Shown here: in pieces, positions 10,041 through 53,533 of the stretch
How the letters are laid out: every line of letters begins with the position of its first letter
How positions within the stretch are numbered: position 1 is the first letter of the stretch
Origin: Candidatus Levyibacteriota bacterium
Lineage (GTDB): Bacteria > Patescibacteriota > Microgenomatia > Levybacterales > GWA1-39-11
Direction of reading: 5' to 3'
DNA length: 64,000 nt
Assembly (NCBI GenBank): GCA_050255815.1
Contig: JBLMVJ010000035.1
Coordinates: forward strand, 10,727-74,726
Notes under the pieces: model-generated
The model's input: the letters and a program-made list of their open reading frames with translations, nothing else
The model's database searches: none
What the model was told of the DNA's origin: nothing
Made by a program: the position numbers and the translations under genes

Positions 10041-10048
10041 GAGAACTC

Positions 10049-10333: not shown

Positions 10334-10344
10334 GAGGACAGCGA

Positions 10345-10557
10345 TTGAAGACTAGACCGCCGCCGAAGGCACTTTCCTTGGGAAGCCCCAAAAAGGCAAG
10401 CCCAAAAAGCAAGGTAGTATCCCGCAAACGCGTAAGCGTGTTCGGAACTTGCTTTCTAATGCAGAAATGCACGGGAAGAAATTCCTGGATCCTTACCGGC
10501 CCTAGTTCATCCGAATTCTGGCTTTGCAAGCCAACAGCTCATGGAGAGATGCCATGA
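10345..10557 (+). CDS. Small highly basic hypothetical protein (70 aa) with a TTG start
   Basis: AGGAGG RBS 7 nt upstream of the TTG. Lys/Arg/Pro-rich. Its stop overlaps the next start (ATGA). Confidence 0.4.
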   Translation: MKTRPPPKALSLGSPKKASPKSKVVSRKRVSVFGTCFLMQKCTGRNSWILTGPSSSEFWLCKPTAHGEMP

Positions 10558-11990
10558 ATTGGACTGCGCTACTAGCGTGGGTGATGGACCCAGTCCGCAC
10601 CCTTGACGAACTTCGGCAGGCGCACCTTGCCCTGATCGGCCATCCCAACATGGGGAACCGCGTTCAGGTGCGTGCGCGCGTGAGGAACTACATCAATCTG
10701 ATGATCGCCACCCAAGGTGGAGGAGCTCCTGCTCCTTGGCACCCTGGCATGGGCGCTCCTGTGGTTCCTCCAACGCCAACACCTGGCCCTGCGCCCGTTC
10801 CTGGTCCTGGCCCTGCGCCCGTTCCTGGTCCTGGCCCTGCGCCCATCGTCCCGCTCGTTCCGGTTGTCGGCTATCGCCCACGCATGTGGACGTACCGCCG
10901 AATGATACGGAGAGCGCTAAACGAGGGCAACACCGCCTGGATGGATACCGAACTCACGGCATGGGGAGACCCTCCGGGAGTCGGCACTCCAGCACAGCGT
11001 GCGTACCGGCTCGAGAACTTCTCGAGGTCACGGCACGGGTGGAACCGCATCGGGCATGATATCCCGGAGCTTGTTCCGCCTGGCGCACCGGCACCGGCAC
11101 CCCGCCGACAGGTGGACTACGGTCCCCTTGGGTGGATCGCAGGTGCTCTGCTGATCGCAGCCGGCGCAGCCGTACTGTTCTTCGCCTTGATTCTGCCTCT
11201 CTCCAAGTGGGGATGGGACCAGAGCTTCGGCGACGACACGGCAGTGCAGCAGCCCGGCAACCAGCCTGGTAACCAGCCCGGCGGCAACAACGGCAACGGT
11301 AGCGGCAACGCGAACCAGCCTGGCAACAACGGCAACGGTAGCGGCAACGCGAACCAGCCCGGCAACCAGCCCGGCAATAGCGGCGTCATCAAGAACTTGG
11401 CCGACGGCCAGTTCCCCTGGACACCGCCCACACCGGGTACCGACCTTGGGAACGACAAGCAGTTCACCAGCACCATCATCGAGCAGGCCAAGCAGGGAGA
11501 CTGGATTCACAGGCTCTTCAACCCTGGCTTGTTCAACGCAGCCAATAACTACGGCGGAGCCGATTCTTGGGCTATTAGCCTGAACGTCGGTCCGAACGCT
11601 GGTGGCAGCTGGAAGGGCGAGGGAGTCTCGGGACGCTTCGTCTACCGTGCTGTGCAGAATCAGGTGGGTTGGTGCCTTGGCATCCTCACCTCGAAGACGT
11701 GGAACAACATCGACCTGAAGAGTCAACTCCTCAGCGGTTCAGACCCCAGTTTGCCGATCGGATTCAACGTCCGCATCGAACCAGGGTCTACCGTGATGGT
11801 GAAGACGAACTCAGGCGAGATCAAGTCCGGCGTCACAAGCGACATGGGTGATATCCAAGTCGTTCTGCCAGACAGCGGGCTGACCACCATCTGCACTGCG
11901 TTCAGCACTGCAGCACCTACGGGTGAAAGCCAGCTTTGGGTGGGACCTCGGGACCGCTCCAAGGACATCAACACGATCGACGCGCGGTAA
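10553..11990 (+). CDS. Single-pass membrane protein with Pro-rich (PGPAPVPG x3) and NGNGSGNANQPGN tandem repeats and a C-terminal beta-rich extracytoplasmic domain. Function unknown.
   Basis: The track gives 10524..11990. I prefer the ATG at 10553, which has a GGAGAG RBS and an ATGA overlap with the upstream stop. TM helix WIAGALLIAAGAAVLFFALILPL. GC about 63%. Confidence 0.6.
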
Positions 11991-12410
11991 CGCACGGCGA
12001 TCCCAGACTCCTCGGAGTTGCCGATGGAGAGTACCTTAACGTCACGAGCACCGCCTAACCGCTGTGATGATCGTGGTCCGCCTGGAAAAGGAGGTTGACG
12101 ATAACCCTCTGGGTTGTCAGGATCCTGAGCGCAAGCTTGAGGATCTCCTCCACTACGGCGGACAGACTGGACAGTTTATGTGTTTCACGCTCCTTTGAGT
12201 TTTGCATTCAAAGAAAGTCGTGTCACGGCAAAAACTGGTTCCAGTCAGGGTGAGAGACTCATTTATTGAGAATTGATTGGATTTTTTCCATCAAGTCTCT
12301 TTTGAGACTTTCTCCCACCTACATGCCTTTGCGTCTCCCTCACCATTATGGTGAGGGACTGATGAGTATTCTTTCGGAGAAATCTGAGGGAAACGAAACG
12401 CAAAAAAAAC

Positions 12411-33596: not shown

Positions 33597-33719
33597 CAGT
33601 CCTGGCCTTGACCTATCTTCCCATGTTGTGTAACAACAAAGTATTGTGAGCGCTGACGTGTTTCACTTCTCTGTTCGGAATGGGAAGAGGTGGGACCACA
33701 TCGCTCTAAAGACCAAGAC
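33597..33719 (-). rRNA. rrf: 5S ribosomal RNA
   Basis: The reverse complement contains GTGGTCCCACC..CCCATTCCGAACAGAGAAGTGAAAC..GCCAGGAC, matching conserved 5S blocks. Ends are approximate. Confidence 0.8.
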
Positions 33720-34000
33720 TCAAGAGCAAAACCGGTAAGATCCGAATCTACTCGAATAGTTTGGGGTAACTTCTAGGCTACCCCATTCTTCTCGAATATT
33801 TCGAATTAACATTAACAAACACTAGCGCATTCGAATTGATTCGATTTAAATTCGAACCATTCGAGAATGATTTCTTAGAATCCACGCTATTTGGATCGAC
33901 CTATTAGTACAACTTCGCTGAAACAGTTACCTGTCTTACACGTGTTGCCTATCAACCTGATGGTCTCTCAGGGGTCTAAAAGAGATCTTATCTTAGGGTG

Positions 34001-34033
<33 letters not shown>

Positions 34034-34268
34034 CATGGAAATCTAGCTACCCAGCAGTGCACTTGTAAGTACAACTGGCACACCAGGGATTTCCTCACCC
34101 CAGTCCTCTCGTACTAGGGGCGACTCCCTTCAAATCTCAAACGGTTGTCCTGGATAGAGTCCGAACTGTCTTACGACGTTCTTAACCCAGCTCGCGTACC
34201 TTTTTAACTGGCGAACAGCCAGACGCTTGGGAGCTTCTCCACCCCCGCGCTAAGATGAGCCGACATCG

Positions 34269-34699
34269 CTGTCAATCCAATCAGTAATTAAGAAAGACTT
34301 AAAAACTTAAAACTGATGGTGATACTCTTGTTACCAAGAGCCTCTGACTATACCTTCATCCGCCAACTGGCGGAGCTAGTCGTATGATACAGATTATAAA
34401 TTTCTCTTTATGAGATGAATCCATATCTCACCCTCTCACCTATGCTGGTGAGGGGTTCAGTCGATAGGGTCCAAAAGAAATTTAAAATTCAGAAGTTAAA
34501 ATTCAGAATTAAATTCTTAATTCTGAAATCTGAATTCTTAACTCTATTTGAACCTCGGTATTACCCTCTTGTGTTCAGAAAGTAGGGTTTCACCGATTTG
34601 GACTAGTTATTTAAATTATTAGTACCTTGTTTTTTGACTCAAATACTAATAAATACAGGCAAGAGTATTACTACTCAGGCGCCCCGATATTTTCATATA
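34269..34699 (-). other. Group-I-intron-like insertion of 431 nt with no ORF in 23S, at the E. coli position equivalent to about 2500 (GGCACCU^CGAUGUCGGC)
   Basis: Exon junctions inferred by alignment to the recalled E. coli 23S. The 5' exon ends in U and the insert ends in G. It contains a GAATTC-rich AT tract and a CTCACC..GGTGAG hairpin. Confidence 0.5.
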
Positions 34700-34742
34700 A
34701 GGTGCCAAACCGCATCGTCGCTGTGGACGCTTGGATGCGATC

Positions 34743-34775
<33 letters not shown>

Positions 34776-35229
34776 AAGCTACGTCCCAACCACTAAGGAA
34801 CGCAGGATCACTAACACCTGCTTTCGCACCTGCTCGACTTGTAGGTCTCGCAGTCAAGCTGGCTTGTGCGTTTGCACAATACGCTCCGATTTCCGTCCGG
34901 AGTTAGCCAACCTTTGTACGCCTCCGTTGCACTTTAGGAGGCAACCTCCCCAGTTAAACTGCCCACCAGACACTGTCTTTTAGCCGTATTTTTATGCGGC
35001 ATTAAAGTAATGCTCACTCATCTTAAAGAGAGGTATTTCATTGATGACCGAAGTCTCCCTCCTATACTAAACAGTTAAAATAAGCTTGCAAATGTCAAGC
35101 TACAGTAAAGCTCCCGGGGTCTTTTTGTCCTAGGACAACCAGGCCGCGTCTTCACAGCCATCTCAATTTCGCCGTGTAAATGTTCAAGACAGTTACTCAG
35201 TCGTTCTACCTTTCGTGCGGGTCGGAACT

Positions 35230-35547
35230 CCATTGTTTTAATGTTCCAACATGGAACCTCACAGTCGCCTGTGAGATCGGACTATATCTTTCCCTTACCA
35301 AATTGGTGAGGGATCTAGCGTCTAGTCTCTGAGGGTTTTCCGATAAATCGGAATCTTCCCTGCTGATTGGCTCCACCAAGCAGATTTTTACTCTTACGAG
35401 TACTGTTGGATACTGAGCTGTTCCAGCAAATAGCTAGATTTTACACTCATTTAGGTTAACGATTGTGTTCTTACGTGACTGTTTTGCTTGTTCCTGATGT
35501 GTATCCCGATTAGATCGGGACTCGGGCAAGTTGATTTGACCCAAACC
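35230..35547 (-). other. Group-I-intron-like insertion of 318 nt with no ORF in 23S, at the E. coli position equivalent to about 1917 (GUCGGGU^AGUUCCGAC)
   Basis: Flanking exon sequence CCTTGTCGGGTT | AGTTCCGACC. The insert ends in G. It contains TCCCGATTAGATCGGGACT and TTCCGATAAATCGGAA hairpins. Confidence 0.5.
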
Positions 35548-37360
35548 AACCCGACAAGGAACTTCGCTACCATAGAACAGTTATAGTTACTGCTGCCGTT
35601 CACCGGAGCTTTAGAAAGCGGCTCCACCTTGCGGTTTCACCACCCACTATTGACTTACCGGCACTGGGCAGGTGTCAGCCCCTATACGTTACCTTTCGGT
35701 TTTGCAGGGACCTGTGTTTTAGATAAACAGTCGCTAAGTAATCTTTTGCTTAACCTGGATGTTACTCCAGGCAGGGCATCTCCCATAGGTTACGCCCAGC
35801 TTTTGTTGCCGAGTTCCTTGAACATTTGTCTCACGGTCGCCTTAGTCTACTCGACCAATCCACCTGTGTCGGTTATGCGGTACGGCAAAATATAGCACTC
35901 CTCACGAATCTTTTCCTGAAGACTGAAACTTACGATCCTCACCCTACTTTCTTGCGATTTCAGATTTGCATTCGCCACTTAATTAAACACTTTGACGGAT
36001 TTGCCCATCAAAACTATCTTATGGCTTGGACCCTGTTTACAGGGCGATCCTTTCCACTCTTGTCCATCCTTGAGTAATAACGCACTATACTCTGTAGCAG
36101 AATATTAACTGCTTGTCCATCCGGCTACCCCGCGCTTTATGACGGGCCACCGTTAGGAGCCGACTAACGCTGCGCTGACTTACATTGCGCAGCAAACCTT
36201 GGATTTTCGGCGGACGCCGTTCTCAGGCGTCATTCGCTACTCATGCCGGCATTCTCACTTGTAAACGCTCCACCATACCTTACAGTACAGCTTCGCTGCA
36301 TTTACGACGCTCCCCTACCACTTGCTCCGATAAATCGGAGTCAAATCTCCATCGTCGGTATTAAGCTTAATCCTCGATCATTTCCGGCGCCATTCTCCAA
36401 TGTCGACTAGTGAGCTGTTACGCTTTCTTTAAAGGATGGCTGCTTCTGAGCCAACCTCCTAGCTGTCTATGGAAAATGACTTCCTTATCAACTTAGCTTA
36501 AATTTAGAGACCTTAGATGGGAGTCTGGGCTGTTTCCCTTTAGACCCACGAGCTTAGCCCCGCAAGTCTGACTCTCTATTAAGTTTTTACGGTATTCGGA
36601 GTTTGATTGATCCTGAAAAGTTGCCTCTCCAGAGACCATTCAGTGCTCTACCCCCGTAAAAACATACAAAAGGCTATACCAAAATATATTTCGGGGAGAA
36701 CCAGCTATCTCCAGGTTCGTTTAGTATGTCACCCCTTACCACAAGTCGTCTCAGATCATTGCTGCGATCACGAGTTCGGGCCTTCCTCATCCTTTCGAAC
36801 AAGTTCACCCTGCTCATGGTAAGCTCACCTGGTTTCGGGTCTTTTGCAATGCGCATTTAGGTATCCCAGTTAGAGATCGCTTTCACTATGCCTCCCCCCT
36901 CACCTTTCCAACGAAAATTCCAACCTTTGTTTTAAATCGAGCTTGTTTCGATAATATTTCAAAGTGGTAATCCTCATTAGAATGGTGAGGGGTTAGACTG
37001 CGCAATACAAAAACTCACCGGCTCATTCTTCAATAGGCACGACGTTATACCCTTGCGGGCACTTCGTCTGCTTGTTAGCTAATAGTTTCAGTAACTCTTT
37101 CATTCCCCTCCCGGGGTGCTTTTCACCTTTCCCTCGCGGTACTAGTTCACTATCGGTAGATGTTGATATTTAGCTTTGGAGCGTGGTCGCCCCGGCTTCC
37201 CACAGGGTTTAATCGTACCCCATGGTACTCAGGAACAGGCAAGAAGTGAAAATCATTTCAAATACGGGACTATCACCCTCTTTGGTCTCTTTTTCCAAAA
37301 CGTTCTTCTATGATTTCCATTTGTGACTTCTTTTGCATTTAAGCAAGCCGTCCTACAACC

Positions 37361-37660
37361 CCCCTCACCTTTTTATCACTAACCTTTTTAAAAGTTCTTG
37401 CCAAGCTTTTGCGCGCTTCTTAAGCGCCTGCTCTCTTCTAAAAGCTAATTTATAAGAAGTATATGCTTCATAATAAATAAGCTCCCATGGCAAAAACTTT
37501 TTAGTATATATAGACTTTCCTTTATTATGGTCCGTAAATCGAGTTTTAAGATCTTTTGTTGAACCAATATAAAACTGGTCGAACTTTACACTCTTAAGAA
37601 TATACGTGTAGAACATAAGTCTATTATAGTTATTTAAGTTAGGAACAAAAAGGTGAGGGG
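37361..37660 (-). mobile_element. 300-nt insertion in 23S domain I, bounded by a perfect 14-bp inverted repeat (CCCCTCACCTTTTT / AAAAAGGTGAGGGG), encoding a GIY-YIG nuclease. An IVS-like or mini mobile element.
   Basis: Located between the conserved 23S blocks AGTAGCGGCGAGCGAACG and GGGTGATAGTCCCGTA. The terminal inverted repeats were read directly. Confidence 0.6.
37365..37616 (-). CDS. Standalone GIY-YIG nuclease domain protein (YhbQ/UPF0213-like, 83 aa) embedded in the 23S rRNA insertion
   Basis: YTYILKS..FYIGSTKDLKTRFTDHNKG..E has the GIY-YIG layout. Same strand as the rRNA. The stop codon lies inside the left inverted-repeat arm. Confidence 0.7.
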   Translation of the reverse strand: MFYTYILKSVKFDQFYIGSTKDLKTRFTDHNKGKSIYTKKFLPWELIYYEAYTSYKLAFRREQALKKRAKAWQELLKRLVIKR

Positions 37661-38078
37661 TTTGAGCTGTTCCGCGTTCGCTCGCCGCTACTGACGGAAT
37701 CTCTGTGATTTCTTTTCCTCGGACTACTTAGATGTTTCAGTTGGTCCGGTATCCCGCCGACTACTAATATATTAATCTTGCGACTAATAACTTCATAGCA
37801 GGCTCCCAGTTAAACTGGGGGGTTTCCCCATTCGGACACCACCGGATCATAATGTCTTCGGCCATTCCCCGGTGATTTTCGCGAGCCAGATGCGTCCTTC
37901 TTCGGTCAACACCTCCTAGGCATCCACTATTAGCATGAATCAAATAGCGTAGATTCTAAAAAACCAATTCATTAAAAACCATGCCTCGGCTTGAAACATG
38001 GAAAATCCGCCACCCGGCGGATTTTTTTAATCCTCCGTCCCGATTAGATCGGGACTTCGGCCTAGTTGTTTGTTTGTA

Positions 38079-38222: not shown

Positions 38223-38295
38223 TGGACCCAAGGAGATTTGAACTCCTGACCTCGTCATTGCAAATGACGCGCTCTACCAGCTAAGCTATGGGCCC
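38223..38295 (-). tRNA. tRNA-Ala (anticodon UGC)
   Basis: Reverse complement GGGCCCATAGCTTAGCTGGTAGAGCGCGTCATTTGCAATGACGAGGTCAGGAGTTCAAATCTCCTTGGGTCCA. G3:U70 Ala identity pair. Anticodon loop TTTGCAA. TTCAAAT T-loop. No encoded CCA. Confidence 0.9.
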
Positions 38296-44951: not shown

Positions 44952-45596
44952 TTAAGCTTTATAATACCGTTTGATTTGGAATAATAGGTAAAAACCTACT
45001 AAATCAAACACAACTCCGGAGATAGAAATAGCAAGAACAGATGAAACAAGTGTTACTACTTCTGACCAGAACATCATGTTCCACCCATTCATCTTGCCGC
45101 TTTTAAGTCCGGGGAAGGCTGCAAGCATTAATCCTGAAGAAGCAATTAACAAAACTGCTGCTAATATGCCGCTTCCGGCTGCTCTTACGCCTCCTACTCC
45201 TCCTAAGGCAGCAAGCGGAGAAAGTGTTGCCATGATTCCCAAACCTGCAATTCCTGCAAGCAATCCTAATATTCCAAAGATTAAAGCAACCCATGGAGCA
45301 AGTTTAACTAATACTTCCTGGAAGTTTTTAGGCAGGGAAGGAACTGCGGAATACCACTTCTCTACTGTCTCTATGATTGAATCAGTTGATGATTTTGCCA
45401 TATATACAAAGTCACCTCCTTTAGAAGCTCTTGCTTGTTGAGAAGCAAAAAGCTTAGAGATTCTTAAGCCCCTCGGAAAACGCTCCGTGAGGCGTGAACG
45501 AATAGTTCTGAAAAGCCGAACGGTAAGTTCAGTGGGGCTAAACAGACTATCTATAATTATTGTGTATGAAAATTTCCTTTGATGCAAGAGGACCAA
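44952..45596 (-). CDS. Hypothetical integral membrane protein (4 TM helices)
   Basis: 214 aa with hydrophobic segments rich in Gly/Ala. No motif recognised. Confidence 0.55.
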   Translation of the reverse strand: MVLLHQRKFSYTIIIDSLFSPTELTVRLFRTIRSRLTERFPRGLRISKLFASQQARASKGGDFVYMAKSSTDSIIETVEKWYSAVPSLPKNFQEVLVKLAPWVALIFGILGLLAGIAGLGIMATLSPLAALGGVGGVRAAGSGILAAVLLIASSGLMLAAFPGLKSGKMNGWNMMFWSEVVTLVSSVLAISISGVVFDLVGFYLLFQIKRYYKA

Positions 45597-45613: not shown

Positions 45614-47032
45614 CTAGAGCTCCAGACCCATCTGCGGGCTTGTCTTCTTCTTATCTATATGCAATATTCCATCTTCTGCATTCCATATTGCTACTTTTCC
45701 GTATTCTCCGTCAAATCCCGGGATTATTGAAATATTCCTGGACCTTACCTTCTCTACTCCTTCCGCTACGTCATTTCCCACCAGTTTTCTTATTTCATCA
45801 AGAGAGGTCCTTAAAAGGATTTCATGTTCTGTGCTAAACTTCTGCACTAAAGAGTCAAATACGGCCAAGACCTTTTGGGATGATGGCATGGAATGTATAG
45901 CCTCTGCAATGACCTCCAATAATGGGACCAGATTTACAGATGGAGGCCTGATTGCTTTAACGTCCTGTATCCATACCACCCCATTTCCGTCTTGTTTCAG
46001 GGTAAAATTCTGGGAAGGGTTTGAAGCCAGGTCCTCTACCCTATGCATTACTCCTACCGTTAAAGGCCTGCGGCATACCGGACATAATTTATCTTTTGGT
46101 GTTTCATCAGGTGAATAGGAGACTTTACAATTCCGGTGGCCGGTATAATGGTACTTACCCTCTTCAGGATAGAACTCTATGGTATAGCCCAGCTCAAACA
46201 CCTTTTCTTTTCCCCGTACCAGCCCATTCATGATGTTGCTATACGTAATATCCTCATCTTTAATTCTTGATTCCTGATTCTTGCTTCTTAACACTGTTGC
46301 TTCCCGGCCCATTTTCTCCAAAGAATGCGCATCAGAAAAAGAAACAATAGAGCGGGTGTCCAGTTCTTTAATCCGCCAATTCATAGATGGATCTGAAGAA
46401 AGCCCGGTCTCTATGGCAAAAATGTATTTAGCATACTCTCCAAAACAGTCTGTAATATGGTCATACCCTGATTTAGACCCATATAAAGAAAACCATGGTG
46501 TCCAGACATGGCATGGGATCAAAACTATACGGGGATTAATTTCAAAAAGCATTTCAGCCAGGTTTCTGGAACTGATCCCTAAAATTGGCCTACCATCAGA
46601 GGACAAGTTTATTCCCCGGCTTACCAGGCCTTTATTAACCTTCTCTGCCGTCTCAAAATCAGGAGACAGGATAAGGTTATGGATACGGTGGACTTTTCCG
46701 TTTTCTGAATAGATAGCTGCCACCTCTACTGAAAGCATAAAATAAGGACCTAAGAAAGGCTGGGGAGGCAATGCATTTGCAGGAATAAACCGGTCTTTTA
46801 ACTTGAATATACCCGGCTGGAATTCCTCAAGCTGGGAAAAGACTTCCTTAAACCAGACAGGATGGGTAAAGTCAGCCACTGAAAGGATATTAATCCCCTT
46901 CTTTCTGCCCCACAAATACATATTGGGGAGGTTCATGCGGGGAGAAACTGCACGTGAGAATCTGGAATGAAGATGTAGGTCTAAGACTAGTTCCATGCAC
47001 CTCATTAAAGCATGGAAAATTCTAAGATTCAA
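45614..47032 (-). CDS. PHP-domain protein, endonuclease Q-like (TIGR00375 family)
   Basis: N-terminal PHP motif DLHLHSRFSRA and ADFTHPVW resemble the archaeal EndoQ N-terminus. C-terminal Zn-finger-like CPVCRRPLTVGVMHRVEDL. Confidence 0.55.
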   Translation of the reverse strand: MNLRIFHALMRCMELVLDLHLHSRFSRAVSPRMNLPNMYLWGRKKGINILSVADFTHPVWFKEVFSQLEEFQPGIFKLKDRFIPANALPPQPFLGPYFMLSVEVAAIYSENGKVHRIHNLILSPDFETAEKVNKGLVSRGINLSSDGRPILGISSRNLAEMLFEINPRIVLIPCHVWTPWFSLYGSKSGYDHITDCFGEYAKYIFAIETGLSSDPSMNWRIKELDTRSIVSFSDAHSLEKMGREATVLRSKNQESRIKDEDITYSNIMNGLVRGKEKVFELGYTIEFYPEEGKYHYTGHRNCKVSYSPDETPKDKLCPVCRRPLTVGVMHRVEDLASNPSQNFTLKQDGNGVVWIQDVKAIRPPSVNLVPLLEVIAEAIHSMPSSQKVLAVFDSLVQKFSTEHEILLRTSLDEIRKLVGNDVAEGVEKVRSRNISIIPGFDGEYGKVAIWNAEDGILHIDKKKTSPQMGLEL

Positions 47033-47307
47033 TCTGCTATTTATGCTGCCGGTTGGAATGAGGGACGGATTTTGCGCGGTTTTCTTGGTCTTCCCGGCTG
47101 GGGAGGAACCTCTCCGGCTGTCGCTTTTAATACCGGCCTATTTACCGGCTGCAACACCCGTTCTATCCCCTGACCTTCTCTATGAAAGGGTTCAGGAAGA
47201 GGCGCAAAACTTCTGCGTTCAATAGAGTCTGCCATATGAAAAAGATAATACTGCGAAATTAAAAAGAATGCAAGCTGAGCTTGTAAGGATTTGGGGGGTA
47301 CTATATA

Positions 47308-47604
47308 ATGGGTTACATGCAAAAGGTAGGTACTATTTTAGATAAATTTAACCCCGTAGCTGATAAATATATCTCACGCGAGTTTCAATCTTTTGGTATC
47401 TACATGTCAGAAGAATTAAACGATTATAAGCACAAATCCCTCTATATAAAGTTGGCAAAAACTACCAATAGGGCACTTTTAGAGAAGGCGCTCTCCTTTG
47501 TTAAAGACGCAAAAACCACTACCCCTAATAAAGGCGCCCTGTTTATGTGGAAGCTAAAACAACTCCGGGATGCAGCTGAGGGGAAAGAAGAGAAAAGCAC
47601 GTAG
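47308..47604 (+). CDS. Small hypothetical protein (98 aa)
   Basis: Clean ORF directly upstream of the MGMT gene. No recognisable domain. Confidence 0.4.
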   Translation: MGYMQKVGTILDKFNPVADKYISREFQSFGIYMSEELNDYKHKSLYIKLAKTTNRALLEKALSFVKDAKTTTPNKGALFMWKLKQLRDAAEGKEEKST

Positions 47605-47630
47605 CACGTAGTTTCTAGCAAAAAAAGACT

Positions 47631-47924
47631 ATGAATTCTTCTTATGAAAAAGTTTACATGGCAACAAGGCAAATCCCAAAAGGGAAAGTTACTACCTATG
47701 GAGCCATAGGCAAGAAGCTTAATATGTCTCCCCGGGTAGTAGGACATGCGCTTCACGCCAATCCTTATGAAGGTGACGTTCCCTGCCACCGGGTGGTAAA
47801 CCGTGACGGACGAGTAGCGCCTAACTTTGCCTTTGGAGGGAAAGATATCCAAAAAAAACTACTTGAAGCGGAAGGAGTTATTTTTCAAGACCAACTTCAC
47901 GTGAAGCCGGAATTCATTATCTGA
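47631..47924 (+). CDS. ogt: Methylated-DNA-protein-cysteine methyltransferase, DNA-binding/active-site domain only (97 aa) with the active Cys retained
   Basis: TTYGAIGKKL...VPCHRVVNRDGRV: the PCHRV active-site motif and HTH of the MGMT C-terminal domain. The N-terminal domain is absent. Confidence 0.75.
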   Translation: MNSSYEKVYMATRQIPKGKVTTYGAIGKKLNMSPRVVGHALHANPYEGDVPCHRVVNRDGRVAPNFAFGGKDIQKKLLEAEGVIFQDQLHVKPEFII

Positions 47925-48485
47925 CTACCACGTCTGGCACGCAGCGTCTCCCATACAGACTTTCCATGATATGCTGTTTCTAGGCCCATACTGGTCAAAC
48001 ATGCTATCCTTTGGATTATTAAGGTACTGGGTTACCTCTACTCCGCAGGCAATAAGCGCATATTGGATTCCGTCAGACCGGTAAAGAAAAGCTTTCTTTG
48101 TCCCGTTCCCGGCAGGAGTAGGACAAGAAGTATCCCCACCGGTAGGGTCTGCCGGCAGCGCTTGTATGTACTTAGGGGCCAGGTTGGGTATCCATCCCCC
48201 TGCTCCACCATTATTACTAAACGTATCCCCTCCGTCAGAGGAATAATAAGCGTCACCTGTTGAAGGATAATTTCCGTTATCGTTGTAATATTGTTCCAGC
48301 GCTCCCTGCAGCTGCTTCAGGATGGTACGCCTCTGGGAATCCCGTGCTTTTGCAAATTGGGTAAGGGGGTTTAGAACAGAGAGGAGGACTACAGCAAGAA
48401 CTCCTAAAATTCCTATAACGGTAATCAGCTCAATGAGAGTGAATCCGGCACGAGTTTCTATAAGCTTTGGGGCAGAAAACCTCAT
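47925..48485 (-). CDS. Type IV pilin/pseudopilin with a prepilin-type N-terminal cleavage-methylation domain
   Basis: AGFTLIELITVIGILGVLAVVLL N-terminal motif (G|FTLIE). Confidence 0.8.
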   Translation of the reverse strand: MRFSAPKLIETRAGFTLIELITVIGILGVLAVVLLSVLNPLTQFAKARDSQRRTILKQLQGALEQYYNDNGNYPSTGDAYYSSDGGDTFSNNGGAGGWIPNLAPKYIQALPADPTGGDTSCPTPAGNGTKKAFLYRSDGIQYALIACGVEVTQYLNNPKDSMFDQYGPRNSISWKVCMGDAACQTW

Positions 48486-48626
48486 ATCTTAAGTTAACCA
48501 CAGGAAAATTGACTAGTCAATGAAAAGGAAATTAATAGATATTAATAGAAATTAAGAAATTGATTGTAATTGCACAATTAATTTCCATGAATTTCGCGAA
48601 GCAAGTTTCTATCAGTTTCTAAGGTG

Positions 48627-50399
48627 TTATTTCTTTTGCGCTTTGAAGATTTCTTCTACTTCTTGCAGGGTGGTTGCGTCTTCCGGCTTTTTGTCATCCC
48701 TAAATTTTTCTAACCTGGGAAACCGCAAAGCATAGCCCGGCACATCTACGTCAAATGCTGACCCTGATTTGGAAGGCTTCATACTGCGTCCTGCGGTATG
48801 CACGGGGGATCGGGTCAACTCATCAGCCTTAATTTCTACCACTATTTCCGGGTTTACCCACACATCCGGCTCCAGCCATTTATCTACTTCAAACAGTACT
48901 GGCTTGTGGCTTGCCTTAATCCTCTCTGCCCTCCTGTGCAGCTCTTTCCATTCTTCATCAGTCAGTCCGGTTCCCACCTTTGCTATAGTTTCAAATTTAT
49001 CCTGTTTCTCATTGTAAATCCCTATCAAAAACGCTCCTATCCCAAAAGACGTCCGCTTTCCCCGTCCTGAATAATACCCCATGACTACACAGTCCACCGT
49101 GTCTTCCAGTTTTGACTGGTATGACCGTTTCAGCTTTATCCAATTCCAGCCCCTGGCGCCCGCCTGATACGTACCGTCTAGTTTTTTAGCCAGGATTCCC
49201 TCCAACCCCCGGGAAATGGCATCATCAAAAAAGTTTTCTATTTCTTTTGCATCCCCCAGAACCTGCTCTTCTGCCTGATAGATAGTCTTTCCTTCTTTAA
49301 TGATTCTAGAAACTGCCTTCCTGCGGTCTTTATATGCTTCAGGGATATAATTTTTTCCATTCAGGTACAGCAGGTCAAAAACCATCAGCTTCAGGGGAAT
49401 CTTTTTTGCCATTTCTTCTATGTCATACTTCCGCTTTCTTTGGGCGGTCAGCTGGAACGGAAGATATTCATTTGTTTCCGGATTGTAGGCAATTGCTTCC
49501 CCCTCCAGAATCACTTCATCCGCATCTATTTGGGAGACCAGCCCTTCCTCTACATCCGGGTACATAAAGGTAACCTCTTCAAGATTTCGCGTGAATAGCT
49601 TTACTCTAAACCCTTTCCCCTTTTCCCTCTTCAGGTGCGCCTGTAGCCTAAATCCGTCAAATTTTGGCTCTATAGCGCATTCCCCTATCTTATCTACAAT
49701 TTCCTGCCCTGAAGAAAGACGCTCTGCGCGGGCCATAAGGATGGGGGTAAAAACTGATGGCTTTATATGTGATAAGCCCTTCAAGCCATCCTCTTTTATA
49801 GTTTTTCCTATTATTCCCAAATCAGGCCGGATGTTATATGCCCGCTCAATTTCCGGTCTGGCTTTCTTATCTTTCCCCAGCATCCAGGATAAAGAATCCA
49901 GAACGGTCATATCAGAAAAGCCCAGGCGGAGCTTTGCCACCGGAATCCTGGAAACAAATCTGCGGGATAACGGATCTAAATCCTGCAAAAGCTCTGCCAT
50001 AAGACCTATTTTTTTCTCTACAGAACCCGCTCCTCCACTTTCTGCAACCTGCCTCAACACTTCAAACACCTGGGAAACCGTACCATCTCTTCCCATTTTT
50101 GTTCCCCCCAGGCTTTGGGCTATCTCACCCAAATCCCCAACTTTTTTATATTCTGCTGCAGCTTTTTCATCTGAAACAGCAAAAGCCTGGGCTATAGCTC
50201 TTACCATCATCTTGTCAGCCATCCCAAACTCTAACGGTTCAAAAAGCGGCGCTACCCTTCCCTGCAAAAGATACATTACTTTATCAAAAACGTCCGCCGG
50301 CACTTTTTCAAAAAGTTCTGAGAGAATGAGAATCATGTCATTGCGGGAAGCAGTGTTTTCCAGTTTTTCTAAATGGATTGATAGCTCTGAGAATTTCAT
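48627..50399 (-). CDS. lig: ATP-dependent DNA ligase
   Basis: Adenylation motif I KFDGFR (AIEPKFDGFRLQAHL), nucleotidyltransferase and OB-fold domain layout, 590 aa. Confidence 0.85.
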   Translation of the reverse strand: MKFSELSIHLEKLENTASRNDMILILSELFEKVPADVFDKVMYLLQGRVAPLFEPLEFGMADKMMVRAIAQAFAVSDEKAAAEYKKVGDLGEIAQSLGGTKMGRDGTVSQVFEVLRQVAESGGAGSVEKKIGLMAELLQDLDPLSRRFVSRIPVAKLRLGFSDMTVLDSLSWMLGKDKKARPEIERAYNIRPDLGIIGKTIKEDGLKGLSHIKPSVFTPILMARAERLSSGQEIVDKIGECAIEPKFDGFRLQAHLKREKGKGFRVKLFTRNLEEVTFMYPDVEEGLVSQIDADEVILEGEAIAYNPETNEYLPFQLTAQRKRKYDIEEMAKKIPLKLMVFDLLYLNGKNYIPEAYKDRRKAVSRIIKEGKTIYQAEEQVLGDAKEIENFFDDAISRGLEGILAKKLDGTYQAGARGWNWIKLKRSYQSKLEDTVDCVVMGYYSGRGKRTSFGIGAFLIGIYNEKQDKFETIAKVGTGLTDEEWKELHRRAERIKASHKPVLFEVDKWLEPDVWVNPEIVVEIKADELTRSPVHTAGRSMKPSKSGSAFDVDVPGYALRFPRLEKFRDDKKPEDATTLQEVEEIFKAQKK

Positions 50400-50968
50400 T
50401 TTTTAACGGGAGGTTTTACTCTAAATACCATGGTTCCACTTTTTTCTAACCTTAATGGTTCGAGAATTGTTGACCATGTGGGAGTTAATTTCCATTTATC
50501 TGCACCAATCTCTTCAGGTCTTATTTGTCTACCTTTTATAGAAAAAAATACATTCAGTACTTCCGCACGTGATCTATTATTTGTGTTTGCTAATATTATC
50601 CCTGTTTCTGTACCTTGCATACTTGCAAGTGCTCCTTCAATGCCAAAAATGCCGATTGTGCCTCTCACCTTTTTTCCAGCCCTAATACCGGTTAATAGTT
50701 TTGCTTCTCCTGGGGTTGGGTTTAAAATAAAACCTTTAGAGGTAAGCATCATGTCAGGATCGATATTATAAGCATCTTTTACGTCCATAGAATTTCCTTC
50801 AAGCTCAGTTGCACCATCTACAATATTTACCTCGCGGTCTTTAATAAGAATCTTTACCCCACTCCCAATAGCGGCATGCTCGATTGCATTGAGTGCAGTT
50901 TCCCTATCTCTCCAATCAAGTTCCTGCAAATGTGCAAAGTCTAATTCTTCTTGTAATACATCTACCAT
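50396..50968 (-). CDS. Hypothetical protein (190 aa) translationally coupled upstream of the DNA ligase
   Basis: ATGA start/stop overlap with the ligase. No recognised motifs. GTIGIFGIEGALA segment. Confidence 0.55.
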   Translation of the reverse strand: MVDVLQEELDFAHLQELDWRDRETALNAIEHAAIGSGVKILIKDREVNIVDGATELEGNSMDVKDAYNIDPDMMLTSKGFILNPTPGEAKLLTGIRAGKKVRGTIGIFGIEGALASMQGTETGIILANTNNRSRAEVLNVFFSIKGRQIRPEEIGADKWKLTPTWSTILEPLRLEKSGTMVFRVKPPVKK

Positions 50969-51013
50969 ACTGTGTTTGTATTGTACACTTTTTTGTGGCT
51001 ATACACCTCTGGA

Positions 51014-52045
51014 TTAAGCCATGACGTATTTCACGCCTTTTGTCACGCCTTTCTTCTTCAGTATCCCTTTTTTCACCAAATCCTGCACTTCCCTTAACAC
51101 CGTATCCTCAGATACCATAGGAAACAAAGAACTGTATGCCTTATTCTCTATATAGCCGTTTTGTTTTATATACTCTATAACTTTTAATTGCCTATCAGAA
51201 AGCATAATAGGCCCGCCCAGCTTTTTGCGCAATCCTAAATCTGCAGAAATAGACTCAATTTTTGCTTTTATTTTAGACAGTTCTGAAGACAAGCATTCGG
51301 TGAAATATGCAAGCCATACCGTCTGGTCTCCCTTAAACTTCTCCACACTCTGGAGCGCGTCATAATATTCTTTGGGATTATTATCAAAGTGTTCTTCCAG
51401 GGAGAAAAACTGGCGGATGTCATACCCTTCTTTAAACAAAACCAGGGTAGAGAGCGCGCGCCCTACCCTGCCATTCCCGTCTAAAAATGGATGGATCCGG
51501 ACAAATTCATAATGCACTACACCGGCCTTTAATACCGGATGCATATCTGATTCTTCCTGAATAAAGGACACCAGTTCTTTTACCTGCCAGGGAACCTCTA
51601 TCACTTTTGGCGGGCGGAAAGAAACCTCTCCGGTTATAGAATTTTTAATGACTACATCTTTATCCCGGTAGTCCCCTGATTTATCCAGAGGTAAAATGTT
51701 TGCCACCACTATCTTATGCAGCTGGCGAATTGTGTCCTCATCTATGCGCTTGCCCATAGTCCGCCCCATATATTCCATGACCTTCCGGTAGTTAATGACT
51801 TCCTGTACGTCCCTATTCCGCGCCGCAATAGTTTCACCGTCTAAGATTTTTTGGACCTGGATAAGGGACAATTCATTCCCTTCTATATGGGTACCAAAAT
51901 GGACTGAGCGGACCACTGCCTCTTCCTGGAACTTTTTCTCCCAATAGGGAAGCAATGGGGCATTTTCTATAACTTCCTTTGCCGCCTCTGTACTACCAAT
52001 ATTTTTAAGGATTGCGTTGGTGATAGAAAACGTGGGTGCGTACAT
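51014..52045 (-). CDS. Fic family protein (AMPylator/Fido domain) with a C-terminal winged-helix domain
   Basis: Canonical Fic motif HPFLDGNGRVGRAL. The N-terminal region has THIEGN, a near-match to the inhibitory (S/T)xxxE(G/N) helix motif. Confidence 0.85.
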   Translation of the reverse strand: MYAPTFSITNAILKNIGSTEAAKEVIENAPLLPYWEKKFQEEAVVRSVHFGTHIEGNELSLIQVQKILDGETIAARNRDVQEVINYRKVMEYMGRTMGKRIDEDTIRQLHKIVVANILPLDKSGDYRDKDVVIKNSITGEVSFRPPKVIEVPWQVKELVSFIQEESDMHPVLKAGVVHYEFVRIHPFLDGNGRVGRALSTLVLFKEGYDIRQFFSLEEHFDNNPKEYYDALQSVEKFKGDQTVWLAYFTECLSSELSKIKAKIESISADLGLRKKLGGPIMLSDRQLKVIEYIKQNGYIENKAYSSLFPMVSEDTVLREVQDLVKKGILKKKGVTKGVKYVMA

Positions 52046-52075
52046 GCTAAAAACGAATGGTATTAGTGTGAATAT

Positions 52076-52342
52076 TTACGAACGCTTTTCTTCAAGTCGT
52101 CTGAGAAGACCTGAGAGCTGGTAGGTCACAAAGACCGCAATAATAGTAACAATAATGGCATAGAGAAGTAGCGAGATGAGTCCTGCATTTCCGGGAAGAT
52201 ATTTCTTCACATAACTATTTACAACTTCCTGAATAAGACTATTCCAGGCAAGAGCTGAAACCAGCCCAAAACCTGCAGTTGCCAGAGTCAGCATCTGGCG
52301 GACAATCTCTATGTGAAGCTTTTGCTTTTTTTCACTTGCCAT
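52076..52342 (-). CDS. Small membrane protein (88 aa, 2 TM helices) immediately upstream of fic
   Basis: Hydrophobic segments LTLATAGFGLVSALAW and LISLLLYAIIVTIIAVFV. Confidence 0.5.
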   Translation of the reverse strand: MASEKKQKLHIEIVRQMLTLATAGFGLVSALAWNSLIQEVVNSYVKKYLPGNAGLISLLLYAIIVTIIAVFVTYQLSGLLRRLEEKRS

Positions 52343-52486
52343 AGGACTATGCTCAAGAATACTCTCTTTTGCAATTTGCTTTTGAGCACATACTCAGAAA
52401 GTGAGGATTGCAAATTCGAGCTTGATGAGTATATTCTAACACACTTGTAAATTTACGGAGGGTTAAAGTACAATACAGGCAACTCC

Positions 52487-53533
52487 ATGACGGTTACACA
52501 TCTCACTCTTCAACACCTGAGGAATCATCTGAAACGCTCATTTGAATTCAAAGATATCACTATTATCATAGGCCGGAACACTGCGGGCAAAACAAATATC
52601 CTGGAGGCGCTCTCTATCCTCTCCCATGGTACTTCCTTCCGGGCAGTACGGGATGCAGATGTAATCCAGGAGGGACGTGATTTTGCAAAAATAGAAGCAG
52701 ATGTTTCAACTACTGATGACAAAGCCAGGCTACATGCTATTTTTGCATTACACGGAACTTATTTATCTAAAAAGTACCAGGTGAACGGCGTTGCCCGGTC
52801 TCTACGTACATTTTCCGAATATTTCTACACAGTCCTTTTTACCCCCCAGGATATAGAAATAGTTACTGATACGCCTTCCCTGCGCCGCCGCTACATAGAT
52901 TCTATCCTAACCAAATCCCACAAAGAATACCGTTCTGCCCTCTCTAAATATGAAAAAGCGCTGCGCCAAAGAAACCGCATGCTGCATGATGCAAAGATAG
53001 GCCGGAAAGAATACAGACGTGCGGATTATGAATTCTGGGAGAACCTACTCATAGAACATGGAACAATAATTCATCGGTTCCGAGAGGTATTTGTAGACTA
53101 TGTTAATAATTTCAAAAAGGAAGTTTTCCAATTTGAAATGTTTTATGACCACAGTATCATATCTACTGAGCGCCTGTTTAAGTATCATTTTGAAGAAGCT
53201 GCTGCAGGTGTGACGTTAGTGGGACCACAGAGGGATGACTTTAAATTCTTCTTCCCGGGTACCAAGAAGGAAATCAAGGAGTTCGGTTCCCGCGGTGAAC
53301 AGCGGCTCACCATCCTTCAGCTCAAACTAATAGAAATTAGCTACTTGCTACACGCTACCGGCCAAAGGCCTATCTTACTTTTAGATGACATATTCTCAGA
53401 GTTGGATGCGGAGAACATAGATATGATTTACCATTTTATTGAGGACCAGCAAACCATTATCACTACCACGCACCGGGAATTTGTCCCCAAAAAAATCCTC
53501 AAGCAAGAGAATTTAGCGATAATTGAACTTTAG
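52487..53533 (+). CDS. recF: DNA replication and repair protein RecF
   Basis: Walker A GRNTAGKTNILEA. SMC-like signature near the C-terminus. Walker B LLLDDIFSELD. Confidence 0.85.
   Translation: MTVTHLTLQHLRNHLKRSFEFKDITIIIGRNTAGKTNILEALSILSHGTSFRAVRDADVIQEGRDFAKIEADVSTTDDKARLHAIFALHGTYLSKKYQVNGVARSLRTFSEYFYTVLFTPQDIEIVTDTPSLRRRYIDSILTKSHKEYRSALSKYEKALRQRNRMLHDAKIGRKEYRRADYEFWENLLIEHGTIIHRFREVFVDYVNNFKKEVFQFEMFYDHSIISTERLFKYHFEEAAAGVTLVGPQRDDFKFFFPGTKKEIKEFGSRGEQRLTILQLKLIEISYLLHATGQRPILLLDDIFSELDAENIDMIYHFIEDQQTIITTTHREFVPKKILKQENLAIIEL

What the first reader, a model, noticed from the sequence alone, without database searches (positions are those of the whole stretch)
45614..53533. DNA-repair neighbourhood with an ATP-dependent ligase coupled to an unknown 190-aa protein, beside a Fic module
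Within 8 kb lie the following genes: an endonuclease Q-like PHP protein; a small unknown CDS plus a domain-only MGMT with the active Cys retained; a type IV pilin; an ATP-dependent DNA ligase (KFDGFR) whose start overlaps (ATGA) the stop of an uncharacterised 190-aa protein; a Fic protein preceded by an 88-aa two-TM protein; and recF.

The ligase partner has no recognisable motifs. It is not Ku, LigD-PE or LigT by motif inspection. It is a candidate novel ligase accessory factor.

The Fic protein has a near-inhibitory motif (THIEGN), and its small TM neighbour does not look like a FicA antitoxin.
Basis: partly seen in the sequence, partly recalled or inferred. Interest (0 to 1): 0.5.

Follow-up and report, generated by a model that had tools for sequence, protein, structure and literature searches.

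The report
Variable regulator slot in Fic–ligase operon
The unknown 190-aa protein is a real, fast-evolving orphan protein found only in Levyibacteria, always wedged between a Fic (AMP-transferase) gene and an archaeal-type DNA ligase gene; because it can be absent, duplicated, replaced by or fused to a signalling receiver domain, it looks like an optional regulator of a deeper, previously undescribed Fic–ligase gene pair rather than a core ligase cofactor.

Summary
The 190-aa protein (X, 50396-50968, minus strand) has no Pfam, NCBIfam, PHROG, PADLOC or PDB match. It belongs to a tiny family: 9 true representatives among 1.84 billion clusters. A confident AlphaFold model (pLDDT 90) has no structural relative in the PDB or BFVD.

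X is under purifying selection (dN/dS 0.08-0.17) but diverges 5-10 times faster than its neighbours. Every X with recoverable flanks lies between Fic and a Lig1-type ligase.

The deeper conserved unit is Fic→ligase: 49 of 49 informative loci, with Fic identity down to 44%, including Gottesmanbacteria that lack X. The space between the two genes is a variable slot:
- single X: 21
- tandem or fused X: 2
- truncated X: 1
- stand-alone CheY-like receiver: 9
- X–receiver fusion: 1
- 65-aa membrane ORF: 3
- empty: 12

X is therefore dispensable and interchangeable with a signalling domain. It is best read as an optional regulatory adaptor of the Fic–ligase pair, plausibly acting on Fic (precedent: SoFic–AS1). 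The "Fic + two-TM module" is not: DUF5654 pairs with recF in 48 of 50 loci.

The parts
51014..52045 (-). Class II (FICD/SoFic-like) Fic protein, 343 aa. It has an N-terminal inhibitory helix (GTHIEGN), the catalytic motif HPFLDGNGRVGR, and a C-terminal winged-HTH-like region. It is the first gene of the conserved Fic→(slot)→ligase unit.
   Evidence: Pfam Fic E=1e-20. PADLOC SoFic model E=2.8e-55 over residues 39-332, and weak Csa3/CasR HTH hits at 276-340. It aligns to FICD and 4rgl across the inhibitory helix. Both motifs are invariant or near-invariant in 30 orthologues. It is 71-87% identical among Levyibacteria, more conserved than RecF.
50396..50968 (-). X: a 190-aa acidic, soluble orphan protein occupying the variable slot between Fic and the ligase. 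E30, G35 and R96 are nearly invariant across the superfamily.
48627..50399 (-). Archaeal/eukaryotic Lig1-type ATP-dependent DNA ligase, 590 aa (DBD + adenylation + OB domains, motif I KFDGFR). Its start overlaps X's stop (ATGA).
   Evidence: Pfam PF04675, PF01068 and PF04679; TIGR00574 at 419 bits. PDB 2hiv E=4.7e-121. Overlap read. It lies downstream of Fic on the same strand in 49 of 49 informative loci.
52076..52342 (-). DUF5654 small two-TM protein. In this window it is locally inverted so that it sits co-directionally upstream of Fic; normally it is paired with recF.
   Evidence: PF18898 E=1e-19. It is on the opposite strand to Fic and next to recF in 48 of 50 loci, often overlapping recF by 1-4 nt. 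Only the window and L023 have it on the same strand as Fic.
52487..53533 (+). recF, divergently transcribed from the Fic operon. It is part of the conserved Levyibacteria synteny block.
   Evidence: TIGR00611 E=1e-78, above cut-off. Adjacent in most Levyibacteria loci.
47925..48485 (-). Type IV pilin/pseudopilin-like protein downstream of the ligase. This neighbour is not conserved outside the closest relatives.
   Evidence: N_methyl and T2SSG hits. Present in L001. In L002, L004 and L048 other genes occupy this position.
47631..47924 (+). Single-domain MGMT/Ogt C-terminal domain (97 aa) with PCHRV.
   Evidence: PF01035 E=1e-25; TIGR00589 above cut-off. An MGMT gene is present near the ligase in most relatives.
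47308..47604 (+). 98-aa unannotated ORF upstream of MGMT.
   Evidence: No family hits. A 102-aa ORF lies at the equivalent position in L001; their homology was not tested.
45614..47032 (-). Endonuclease Q homologue (PHP fold with a CPVC zinc motif).
   Evidence: PDB PfuEndoQ 5zb8 E=4.5e-37 over residues 18-449. TIGR00375 E=7e-42. The L001 orthologue carries PF27218 MJ0043_C.

Best explanation
The conserved functional unit is a two-gene operon: a class II Fic enzyme (FICD/SoFic-like, inhibitory Glu retained, C-terminal wHTH) followed by a Lig1-type ATP-dependent DNA ligase. It is shared by Levyibacteria, Gottesmanbacteria and some other Patescibacteria.

In Levyibacteria the short space between the two genes has become a variable slot. 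X (the 190-aa protein) is one of several occupants of that slot. X is a lineage-restricted, acidic, soluble α/β domain with no detectable sequence or structural relatives. It evolves 5-10 times faster than its neighbours, but under purifying selection.

The slot can be empty. It can hold one or two X copies, an unrelated phosphorylatable CheY-type receiver, or an X–receiver fusion. For that reason X is most likely a non-enzymatic, protein-binding regulatory or signal-input adaptor for the pair, not an obligatory ligase subunit.

The most likely target (inferred, not shown) is the Fic enzyme. X would set the balance between AMPylation and deAMPylation, or affect oligomeric state or stability, in the way small downstream partners do for SoFic-type enzymes. 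Fic may in turn autoregulate the operon through its wHTH, or act on the ligase or another target.

Shown: gene content, linkage statistics, the slot states, the fusion, selection, and the orphan fold. Inferred: the regulatory role, Fic as the target, and any Fic–ligase biochemistry.
For: 1. Fic→ligase linkage. In 50 distinct Fic orthologues (44-100% identity), 49 have the ligase next downstream on the same strand; the remaining contig ends. In the distant ~50% clade the upstream synteny (recF, DUF5654) is mostly lost, yet Fic still abuts the ligase with gaps of 1-120 nt.

2. Slot states. Single X 21, two X genes 1, X–X fusion 1 (plus P0006), truncated X 1, receiver alone 9, X–receiver fusion 1, 65-aa TM ORF 3, none 12.

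3. The fusion. L068 6039-6989 encodes X at residues 7-168 (E=3.6e-17; this sequence was not in the profile) plus PF00072 at 191-299 (E=1.6e-14).

4. Recent replacement. Within the clade closest to the window (Fic at least 85% identical), both X (window, L001, L007, L010) and the receiver (L006, L050, L051) occur.

5. The receivers look functional. They keep the invariant acidic-pocket Asp, the phospho-acceptor Asp and the Lys.

6. Fast evolution under constraint. X is 24-48% identical where Fic is 71-85% and the ligase 66-74%. For L001-L010, dN is 0.31 for X against 0.03 for Fic and 0.06 for the ligase, with ω=0.17.

7. Non-enzymatic features. X is acidic (median pI 5.0). Only three positions are near-invariant (E30, G35, R96). 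E30 sits in an (S/T)-P-x-E stretch at the start of a predicted short helix, which could be structural.

8. Precedents. A 47-aa gene immediately downstream of E. coli Sofic neutralises its toxicity (PMC12249575). SoFic's AMPylation depends on dimerisation, its deAMPylation needs the inhibitory Glu, and its wHTH binds its own promoter (bioRxiv 10.64898/2026.07.09.737422).
Against: - No direct evidence of any physical interaction. Multimer modelling was not available.
- X is linked to the ligase exactly as tightly as to Fic, and its stop overlaps the ligase start. Genomic data therefore cannot decide which neighbour it acts on.
- All X-bearing genomes belong to one lineage with extensive synteny, so co-localisation could be inherited rather than selected.
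- AS1 is 47 aa and could not be compared with X; the analogy is by position only.
- The X–receiver fusion was seen in a single metagenomic contig.
- A protein that evolves this fast while contacting two very conserved enzymes is somewhat unexpected.
- The AlphaFold database could not be searched, so 'orphan fold' holds only for the PDB and BFVD.
Confidence: 0.5

Rival explanations
1. One reading: X is a dedicated accessory factor of the ATP-dependent ligase, for example a recruitment, clamp-like or end-binding partner. It would be co-translated with the ligase through the ATGA overlap and form a complex with it.
For: X's stop overlaps the ligase start, and the same -4 overlap is found in most X loci. 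Every X family member with recoverable downstream sequence is followed by the ligase. Tandem or fused X copies could suggest a dimeric or ring-like partner. Lig1-type ligases in archaea and eukaryotes normally use a protein partner (PCNA; established knowledge), which bacteria lack.
Against: Orthologous ligases (61-75% identical within Levyibacteria, 43-55% in the more distant clades) work without X in 12 loci and with a receiver domain instead in 9. The ATGA overlap is also used by receiver genes and by Fic itself (L012). X is acidic and shows no fold similarity to Ku, PCNA/β-clamp, XRCC-type or LigD domains. X diverges far faster than the ligase. No X–ligase fusion appeared in the exhaustive search.
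Confidence: 0.2
2. X is a functionally unrelated passenger. The Fic–ligase intergenic space is a permissive insertion site in a well-expressed operon, and assorted small genes (X, receiver, small TM ORF) lodge there without acting on either neighbour.
For: At least three unrelated gene types, as well as nothing at all, occupy the slot. X and the receiver are not homologous (hhalign probability 0.3%). Turnover is rapid even among close relatives. X evolves fast.
Against: X has never been found anywhere else among 1.84 billion cluster representatives and is kept under purifying selection in this one position. The X–receiver fusion links the two main occupants functionally. Spacing on both sides is tight, which fits co-expression.
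Confidence: 0.15
3. The Fic gene is a SoFic-type abortive-infection or toxin element, and X is its rapidly co-evolving immunity or sensor partner (an arms-race gene). The ligase is only a neighbour.
For: The PADLOC SoFic model hits Fic at E=2.8e-55 and phage PHROG Fic families at E=4e-56. The Sofic–AS1 toxin–antitoxin precedent has the antitoxin downstream (PMC12249575). X's fast evolution and copy-number variation resemble immunity genes.
Against: Fic is a single-copy, highly conserved core gene (71-87% identity, ω≈0.02) in a fixed syntenic position across a whole class and beyond, not a patchy defence-island gene. There is no compositional anomaly at 48-52 kb. X has ω well below 1. No X relatives were found in phage collections. 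Twelve loci have no slot gene, yet Fic is intact with its inhibitory Glu.
Confidence: 0.1

Closest known systems
SoFic/EcSofic with its downstream small protein AS1 (class II Fic with C-terminal wHTH; PMC12249575; bioRxiv 10.64898/2026.07.09.737422)
   Same: The Fic here is class II, with an N-terminal inhibitory helix, a canonical HPFxDGNGR motif and a C-terminal HTH-like region. It matches the PADLOC SoFic model over 39-332. A small protein is encoded immediately downstream on the same strand.
   Different: AS1 is 47 aa; X is 190 aa with its own globular fold. Sequence relatedness could not be tested because the AS1 sequence is not in hand. Here Fic is a conserved core gene always followed by a DNA ligase, not a defence-island gene. 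The S/T of the inhibitory motif is Gly (GTHIEGN against SSEIEN in SoFic and TVAIEGN in FICD). The downstream partner is optional and can be swapped for a receiver domain.
Class I Fic toxin–antitoxin modules (VbhT–VbhA, FicT–FicA)
   Same: A Fic enzyme accompanied by a small, separately encoded protein. X has a conserved (S/T)-P-x-E-(H/N) stretch that superficially recalls (S/T)xxxE(G/N).
   Different: From established knowledge, class I antitoxins are about 60-70 aa, are encoded upstream, and supply the only inhibitory Glu. Here Fic carries its own inhibitory helix (class II), and X is downstream and three times larger. The S/T-to-E spacing in X is one residue shorter than in the motif, so the resemblance may be no more than a helix-capping feature.
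Bacterial ATP-dependent ligase partner systems (Ku–LigD NHEJ; the LigB/TIGR04120 'cisplatin damage response' operon with Lhr-like helicase, exonuclease and phosphoesterase)
   Same: An ATP-dependent ligase encoded in an operon with conserved partner genes, in a neighbourhood rich in repair genes (EndoQ, MGMT, RecF).
   Different: The ligase is an archaeal Lig1 type. It scores 419 bits on TIGR00574 but falls below the cut-offs of the LigD, LigC and TIGR04120 models. No Ku, PE, Pol, helicase or exonuclease partner is present. The conserved partner is a Fic enzyme, which to my knowledge and in the literature searched has not been described.
Single-domain (CheY-like) response regulators and response regulators with novel output domains
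   Same: In 9 loci the slot holds a stand-alone receiver with all phospho-acceptor residues. In L068, X is fused to such a receiver, the arrangement expected if X is an output or partner-binding domain.
   Different: X sits N-terminal to the receiver; the usual order, from general knowledge, is receiver first. No cognate kinase was identified. The window's X is stand-alone with no receiver nearby.

Membership tests
Ku (bacterial NHEJ end-binding partner of LigD) | Ku core β-barrel domain detectable by sequence profile (Pfam Ku) | tested here: not met
   No Pfam or NCBIfam hit for X or its 48%-identical homologue, even at E up to 10. The 22-sequence profile gave no hit against PDB sequences.
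Ku (bacterial NHEJ end-binding partner of LigD) | Ku-like fold | tested here: not met
LigD accessory domains (phosphoesterase PE, polymerase/primase) and LigT/2H phosphoesterase | Profile match to the PE, Pol or 2H domains | tested here: not met
   No Pfam or NCBIfam hits. No tandem HxT/S motifs appear among the conserved columns of alignment A3.
Sliding clamp (PCNA/β-clamp), the usual Lig1 partner | Clamp-domain fold (pseudo-symmetric β-α-β-β-β repeats) | tested here: not met
Class I Fic antitoxin (FicA/VbhA) | Small protein (about 60-70 aa) encoded upstream of Fic, carrying (S/T)xxxE(G/N) | tested here: not met
   X is 190 aa and lies downstream of Fic. Its conserved stretch is (S/T)-P-x-E-(H/N), with one residue fewer between S/T and E. 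Fic has its own inhibitory helix.
AS1 (anti-Sofic1) | Small ORF immediately downstream of a SoFic-type Fic that neutralises its toxicity | not testable with these tools
   The position criterion is met. The size differs (47 aa against 190 aa, PMC12249575).
Response-regulator receiver domain (PF00072) | Profile match to the (βα)5 receiver with the phospho-acceptor Asp | tested here: not met
   X has no PF00072 hit. Profile–profile comparison of X (A3) with the slot receivers (A5) gives probability 0.3%. The receivers are a different slot occupant.
Class II Fic AMP-transferase (the gene upstream of X) | Catalytic motif HxFx(D/E)GN(G/K)R | tested here: met
   HPFLDGNGRVGR in the window. HP[FY]xDGNGR in all 30 orthologues.
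Class II Fic AMP-transferase (the gene upstream of X) | Inhibitory motif (S/T)xxxE(G/N) located N-terminal to the catalytic motif in the same chain | tested here: inconclusive
   GTHIEGN aligns column for column with FICD's TVAIEGN. E and G/N are retained, but the S/T position is Gly, with Thr one residue later. This holds in all 30 orthologues.
Lig1-type three-domain ATP-dependent DNA ligase (the gene downstream of X) | DNA-binding, adenylation (KxDGxR) and OB domains | tested here: met
   PF04675, PF01068 and PF04679 all above cut-off. TIGR00574 at 419 bits against a cut-off of 217.8. KFDGFR is present. Full-length match to Sulfolobus ligase 2hiv.

The most novel reading that the evidence does not exclude
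Fic, the slot protein (X or a phosphorylatable receiver) and the Lig1-type ligase form one signal-controlled system. In it, a Fic AMP-transferase/deAMPylase directly regulates an ATP-dependent DNA ligase or its adenylated intermediates. X, a new fold, would be the lineage-specific input domain that switches Fic between its two activities. This would be the first link between Fic-type AMPylation and DNA ligation, and a new response-regulator output domain.
Probability: 0.12. Interest if true: 0.8.

Novelty: new variant of a known kind. Interest (0 to 1): 0.5.

Why it matters
Two things would matter if confirmed.

1. **A conserved Fic–ligase pair.** A class II Fic enzyme and an archaeal-type ATP-dependent DNA ligase form a strictly conserved gene pair across Microgenomate CPR bacteria: 49 of 49 loci, persisting after the surrounding synteny has decayed. 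I found no description of this in the literature searched. Both enzymes do AMP-transfer chemistry, so the pairing yields concrete, testable hypotheses. Fic may AMPylate or deAMPylate the ligase. Fic's wHTH may regulate ligase expression. Fic may clear adenylated intermediates.

2. **A natural experiment in the slot.** The gene between them shows regulatory modules being exchanged: an orphan-fold domain (X), a CheY-type receiver, or their fusion. That points to X as a new output or adaptor domain of two-component-like signalling in organisms with very reduced regulatory repertoires.

The finding also corrects the simpler reading that X is a ligase cofactor, and shows that the DUF5654 'Fic partner' is really a recF partner.

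Tried and rejected
- AlphaFold with only two sequences gave an unusable model (pLDDT 51). It was superseded by the 15-sequence model.
- The search for related loci with the divergent X alignment failed for lack of conserved stretches.
- The AFDB fold libraries were unavailable, so the 'no structural relative' statement covers only the PDB and BFVD.
- P0005, a 3442-aa hit with 14 stretches, was rejected as a low-complexity repeat artefact after reading the sequence.
- The idea that X is a very divergent receiver was rejected by hhalign (probability 0.3%).
- A phage or mobile-element origin for X was rejected: no tblastn hits in 50,697 phage records and none in IMG/VR, and no GC anomaly at the locus.
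- L014 first looked like an empty 402-nt gap or a decayed X. Translating it showed an intact receiver gene that my ORF filter had missed.
- Promoter and terminator scans were at chance level and uninformative.
- I considered X's (S/T)PxE motif as an in-trans Fic inhibitory motif. The spacing is off by one, and a helix-capping role could explain its conservation equally well, so it stays as speculation only.
- Literature searches for a Fic–ligase operon, ATP-dependent ligases in CPR bacteria, and a Fic–receiver link found nothing relevant.

Full report
**1. Observation**

- 45614-47032(-) is an endonuclease Q homologue: PDB PfuEndoQ 5zb8 E=4.5e-37 over residues 18-449, and TIGR00375 E=7e-42.
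- 47308-47604(+) is an unannotated 98-aa ORF.
- 47631-47924(+) is a single-domain MGMT (PF01035, E=1e-25) that keeps PCHRV.
- 47925-48485(-) is a prepilin.
- 48627-50399(-) is a three-domain Lig1-type ATP-dependent ligase: PF04675, PF01068 and PF04679, and TIGR00574 at 419 bits, with KFDGFR. Its best solved relative is the Sulfolobus ligase 2hiv (E=4.7e-121).
- 50396-50968(-) is the 190-aa ORF, here called X. Its TGA overlaps the ligase ATG.
- 51014-52045(-) is a Fic protein.
- 52076-52342(-) is a DUF5654 protein.
- 52487-53533(+) is RecF.

The source is a Candidatus Levyibacteriota (CPR/Patescibacteria) MAG. Base composition at the locus is unremarkable.

**2. What X is at the sequence and structure level**

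X has no hit in Pfam, NCBIfam, PHROGs, PADLOC or PDB sequences, even at permissive thresholds.

The indexed search of 5.8 billion proteins found one real homologue, at 48% identity. The exhaustive HMMER scan of 1.84 billion cluster representatives found 11 hits. One of them, P0005, is a low-complexity artefact, and P0001 is the window's own protein.

Members are 160-200 aa. Two are tandem X–X fusions of 345 and 375 aa. One genome has two adjacent X genes.

A 22-sequence superfamily alignment has only three near-invariant positions: E30, G35 and R96. E30 lies in an (S/T)-P-x-E stretch at the start of a predicted short helix.

With 15 sequences AlphaFold gives a confident α/β model: pLDDT 89.8, pTM 0.87, with all five models at 86.7 or above. 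That model has no significant structural neighbour:
- Foldseek against the PDB: E above 1.
- Foldseek against BFVD: E above 0.3.

The AFDB libraries were not available.

X proteins are uniformly acidic, with a median pI of 5.0, and soluble. X is not a cryptic receiver domain (hhalign probability 0.3%).

**3. X is a real gene but evolves fast**

| Gene | Identity between the window and three relatives |
|---|---|
| Fic | 85 / 78 / 71% |
| Ligase | 73 / 74 / 66% |
| RecF | 63 / 51% (two relatives) |
| X | 48 / 24 / 28% |

In closer pairs, X has dN/dS of 0.08-0.17, which is purifying selection. Its dN, however, is 5-10 times that of Fic. For L001 against L010, dN is 0.314 for X, 0.032 for Fic and 0.062 for the ligase.

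**4.

Every family representative from the unbiased search whose contig could be read lies between a 343-344-aa Fic gene and the ligase, on the same strand and with tight spacing. This holds for P0002, P0003, P0004, P0006, P0009, P0010, P0011 and P0012. So the linkage to the ligase is perfectly conserved, but so is the linkage to Fic.

I then asked the question the other way round. Forty ligase-centred loci from GTDB genomes and 32 Fic-centred loci from metagenomes were analysed with my own ORF calling, BLAST and HMM searches.

Among 50 distinct Fic orthologues (44-100% identical to the window's), 49 have the Lig1-type ligase as the next conserved gene downstream on the same strand. The fiftieth contig ends first. 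This includes Gottesmanbacteria and other Patescibacteria, where Fic abuts the ligase directly (gaps of 1-120 nt) and the recF/DUF5654 synteny is largely gone.

More distant ligases lack Fic: Parcubacteria, Coprothermobacterota and archaea, at 49% identity or less. Fic proteins at 23-26% identity belong to other families and have no ligase nearby.

**5. The slot**

Between Fic and the ligase, the 49 loci show these states (with L014 corrected):

| Slot occupant | Loci |
|---|---|
| Single X | 21 |
| Two X genes | 1 |
| X–X fusion | 1 |
| Truncated X (143 aa) | 1 |
| Stand-alone CheY-type receiver, PF00072 | 9 |
| X–receiver fusion | 1 |
| 65-aa two-TM ORF (Fic ~50% clade) | 3 |
| No gene | 12 |

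The fusion is L068 6039-6989. X occupies residues 7-168 (E=3.6e-17, with a profile that did not include this sequence), and PF00072 occupies 191-299 (E=1.6e-14).

The receivers retain the invariant acidic-pocket Asp, the phospho-acceptor Asp and the Lys.

X occurs only where Fic is at least 68% identical to the window's, that is, within Levyibacteria. Within the clade closest to the window (Fic at least 85% identical), both X and the receiver occur, so replacement is recent.

The -4 ATGA overlap with the ligase start is also used by receiver genes (L006, L017) and by Fic itself (L012), so it is not specific to X.

**6. The Fic protein and its supposed two-TM partner**

The Fic aligns to FICD and to 4rgl across the N-terminal inhibitory helix. 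GTHIEGN here lines up with TVAIEGN in FICD; SoFic has SSEIEN (bioRxiv 10.64898/2026.07.09.737422). The inhibitory Glu and the following G/N are kept, and the S/T position is Gly.

This motif and the catalytic HPFxDGNGR are conserved in all 30 orthologues examined.

The protein matches the PADLOC SoFic model over residues 39-332 (E=2.8e-55) and has weak HTH hits at its C-terminus.

DUF5654 is not its partner. In 48 of 50 loci DUF5654 is on the opposite strand, adjacent to recF and often overlapping it by 1-4 nt. Only the window and L023 carry a local inversion that puts it co-directionally upstream of Fic.

**7. Interpretation**

The data show a conserved Fic→ligase operon with a variable middle position. 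X is dispensable. It can be exchanged for a signalling receiver and can be fused to one. It is acidic, has few invariant residues and has no enzyme-like signature.

The best-supported reading is therefore that X is an optional, lineage-specific regulatory or adaptor domain of this operon, not a core ligase cofactor.

Genomics cannot settle which neighbour X acts on. I favour Fic for three reasons:
- Fic enzymes are typically controlled by small partners or by their oligomeric state.
- A small gene immediately downstream of E. coli Sofic neutralises its toxicity (PMC12249575).
- SoFic's AMPylation depends on dimerisation, its deAMPylation needs the inhibitory Glu, and its wHTH binds its own promoter (bioRxiv 10.64898/2026.07.09.737422). 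The tandem and fused X copies would fit a dimeric target.

The rival readings are a ligase accessory factor, a passenger gene, and a defence-type immunity or sensor partner. They remain possible and are scored separately.

**8. Novelty**

X is a new, very small protein family with a fold unmatched in the PDB and BFVD. The strict Fic–Lig1-ligase pairing and its variable regulator slot were not found in the literature I could search.

Conceptually this is a new variant of a known kind: a regulated class II Fic with a small downstream partner. What is unusual is the constant ligase partner and the exchange between X and a receiver domain.

The most novel reading that the evidence does not exclude is that Fic-type AMP transfer directly controls DNA ligation. 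It is unproven, and I give it about 12%.

**9. Limits**

- There are no interaction data.
- The X–receiver fusion rests on a single contig.
- All X-bearing genomes are related.
- AFDB and ESM fold space was not searched.
- Whether these genomes also carry NAD-dependent LigA is unknown.

Noticed in passing
window 33883-37949 (-), 35258-35526 (-), 33600-33717 (-), 38223-38295 (-): The 23S rRNA gene spans 4067 nt against a 2925-nt model, so it carries about 1.1 kb of insertions. These include a group I intron (RF00028, 80.5 bits). A 5S rRNA lies downstream and a tRNA upstream. No 16S rRNA was detected in the window.
   Followed up: partly
window ~9800-12200; ORF 10524-11990 (+): A roughly 2.4-kb island of 53-66% GC sits in a 43% GC genome. 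It encodes a 488-aa Pro/Gly/Asn-rich low-complexity protein with one hydrophobic segment and no Pfam hit. It could be foreign DNA, a surface protein or an assembly chimera.
   Followed up: partly
window 52046-52486; L023: The DUF5654 gene is inverted relative to its orientation in 48 of 50 related loci, where it is co-directional with recF and often overlaps it. The DUF5654–recF pairing is itself an unexplained conserved linkage. I did not look for flanking inverted repeats.
   Followed up: partly
L072 6120-6317, L073 4130-4327, L074 1259-1456: In the clade whose Fic is about 50% identical to the window's, the Fic–ligase slot holds a conserved 65-aa two-TM ORF that overlaps the Fic stop by 4 nt in two loci. 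It has no Pfam hit. This is a third, unrelated slot occupant.
   Followed up: partly
L004 4826-6391 (also L060, L063): A 521-aa ORF with no precomputed Pfam hit is inserted between DUF5654 and Fic in some Levyibacteria, pushing DUF5654 about 1.7 kb upstream.
   Followed up: no
window 47308-47604 (+); L001 5017-5325: A 98-aa helical-looking ORF with no family hit lies directly upstream of the single-domain MGMT. A 102-aa ORF sits at the same position in L001, but other Levyibacteria have DUF2207 and VTT-domain genes next to MGMT instead. I did not test whether it substitutes for the missing MGMT N-terminal domain.
   Followed up: no
window 48627-50399 (-): The bacterial (CPR) ligase is much closer to the Sulfolobus ligase (2hiv, E=4.7e-121) than to the other archaeal or eukaryotic solved ligases (E of about 1e-84 or weaker). 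Related ligases at 30-39% identity occur in DPANN and other archaeal MAGs. This suggests an archaeal origin by transfer.
   Followed up: no
window 44952-45596 (-): A 214-aa ORF with a Gly/Ala-rich multi-TM C-terminal half and no significant family hit sits next to EndoQ. The only match is a sub-threshold one to the PycTM/Pycsar effector family (E=1.1).
   Followed up: no
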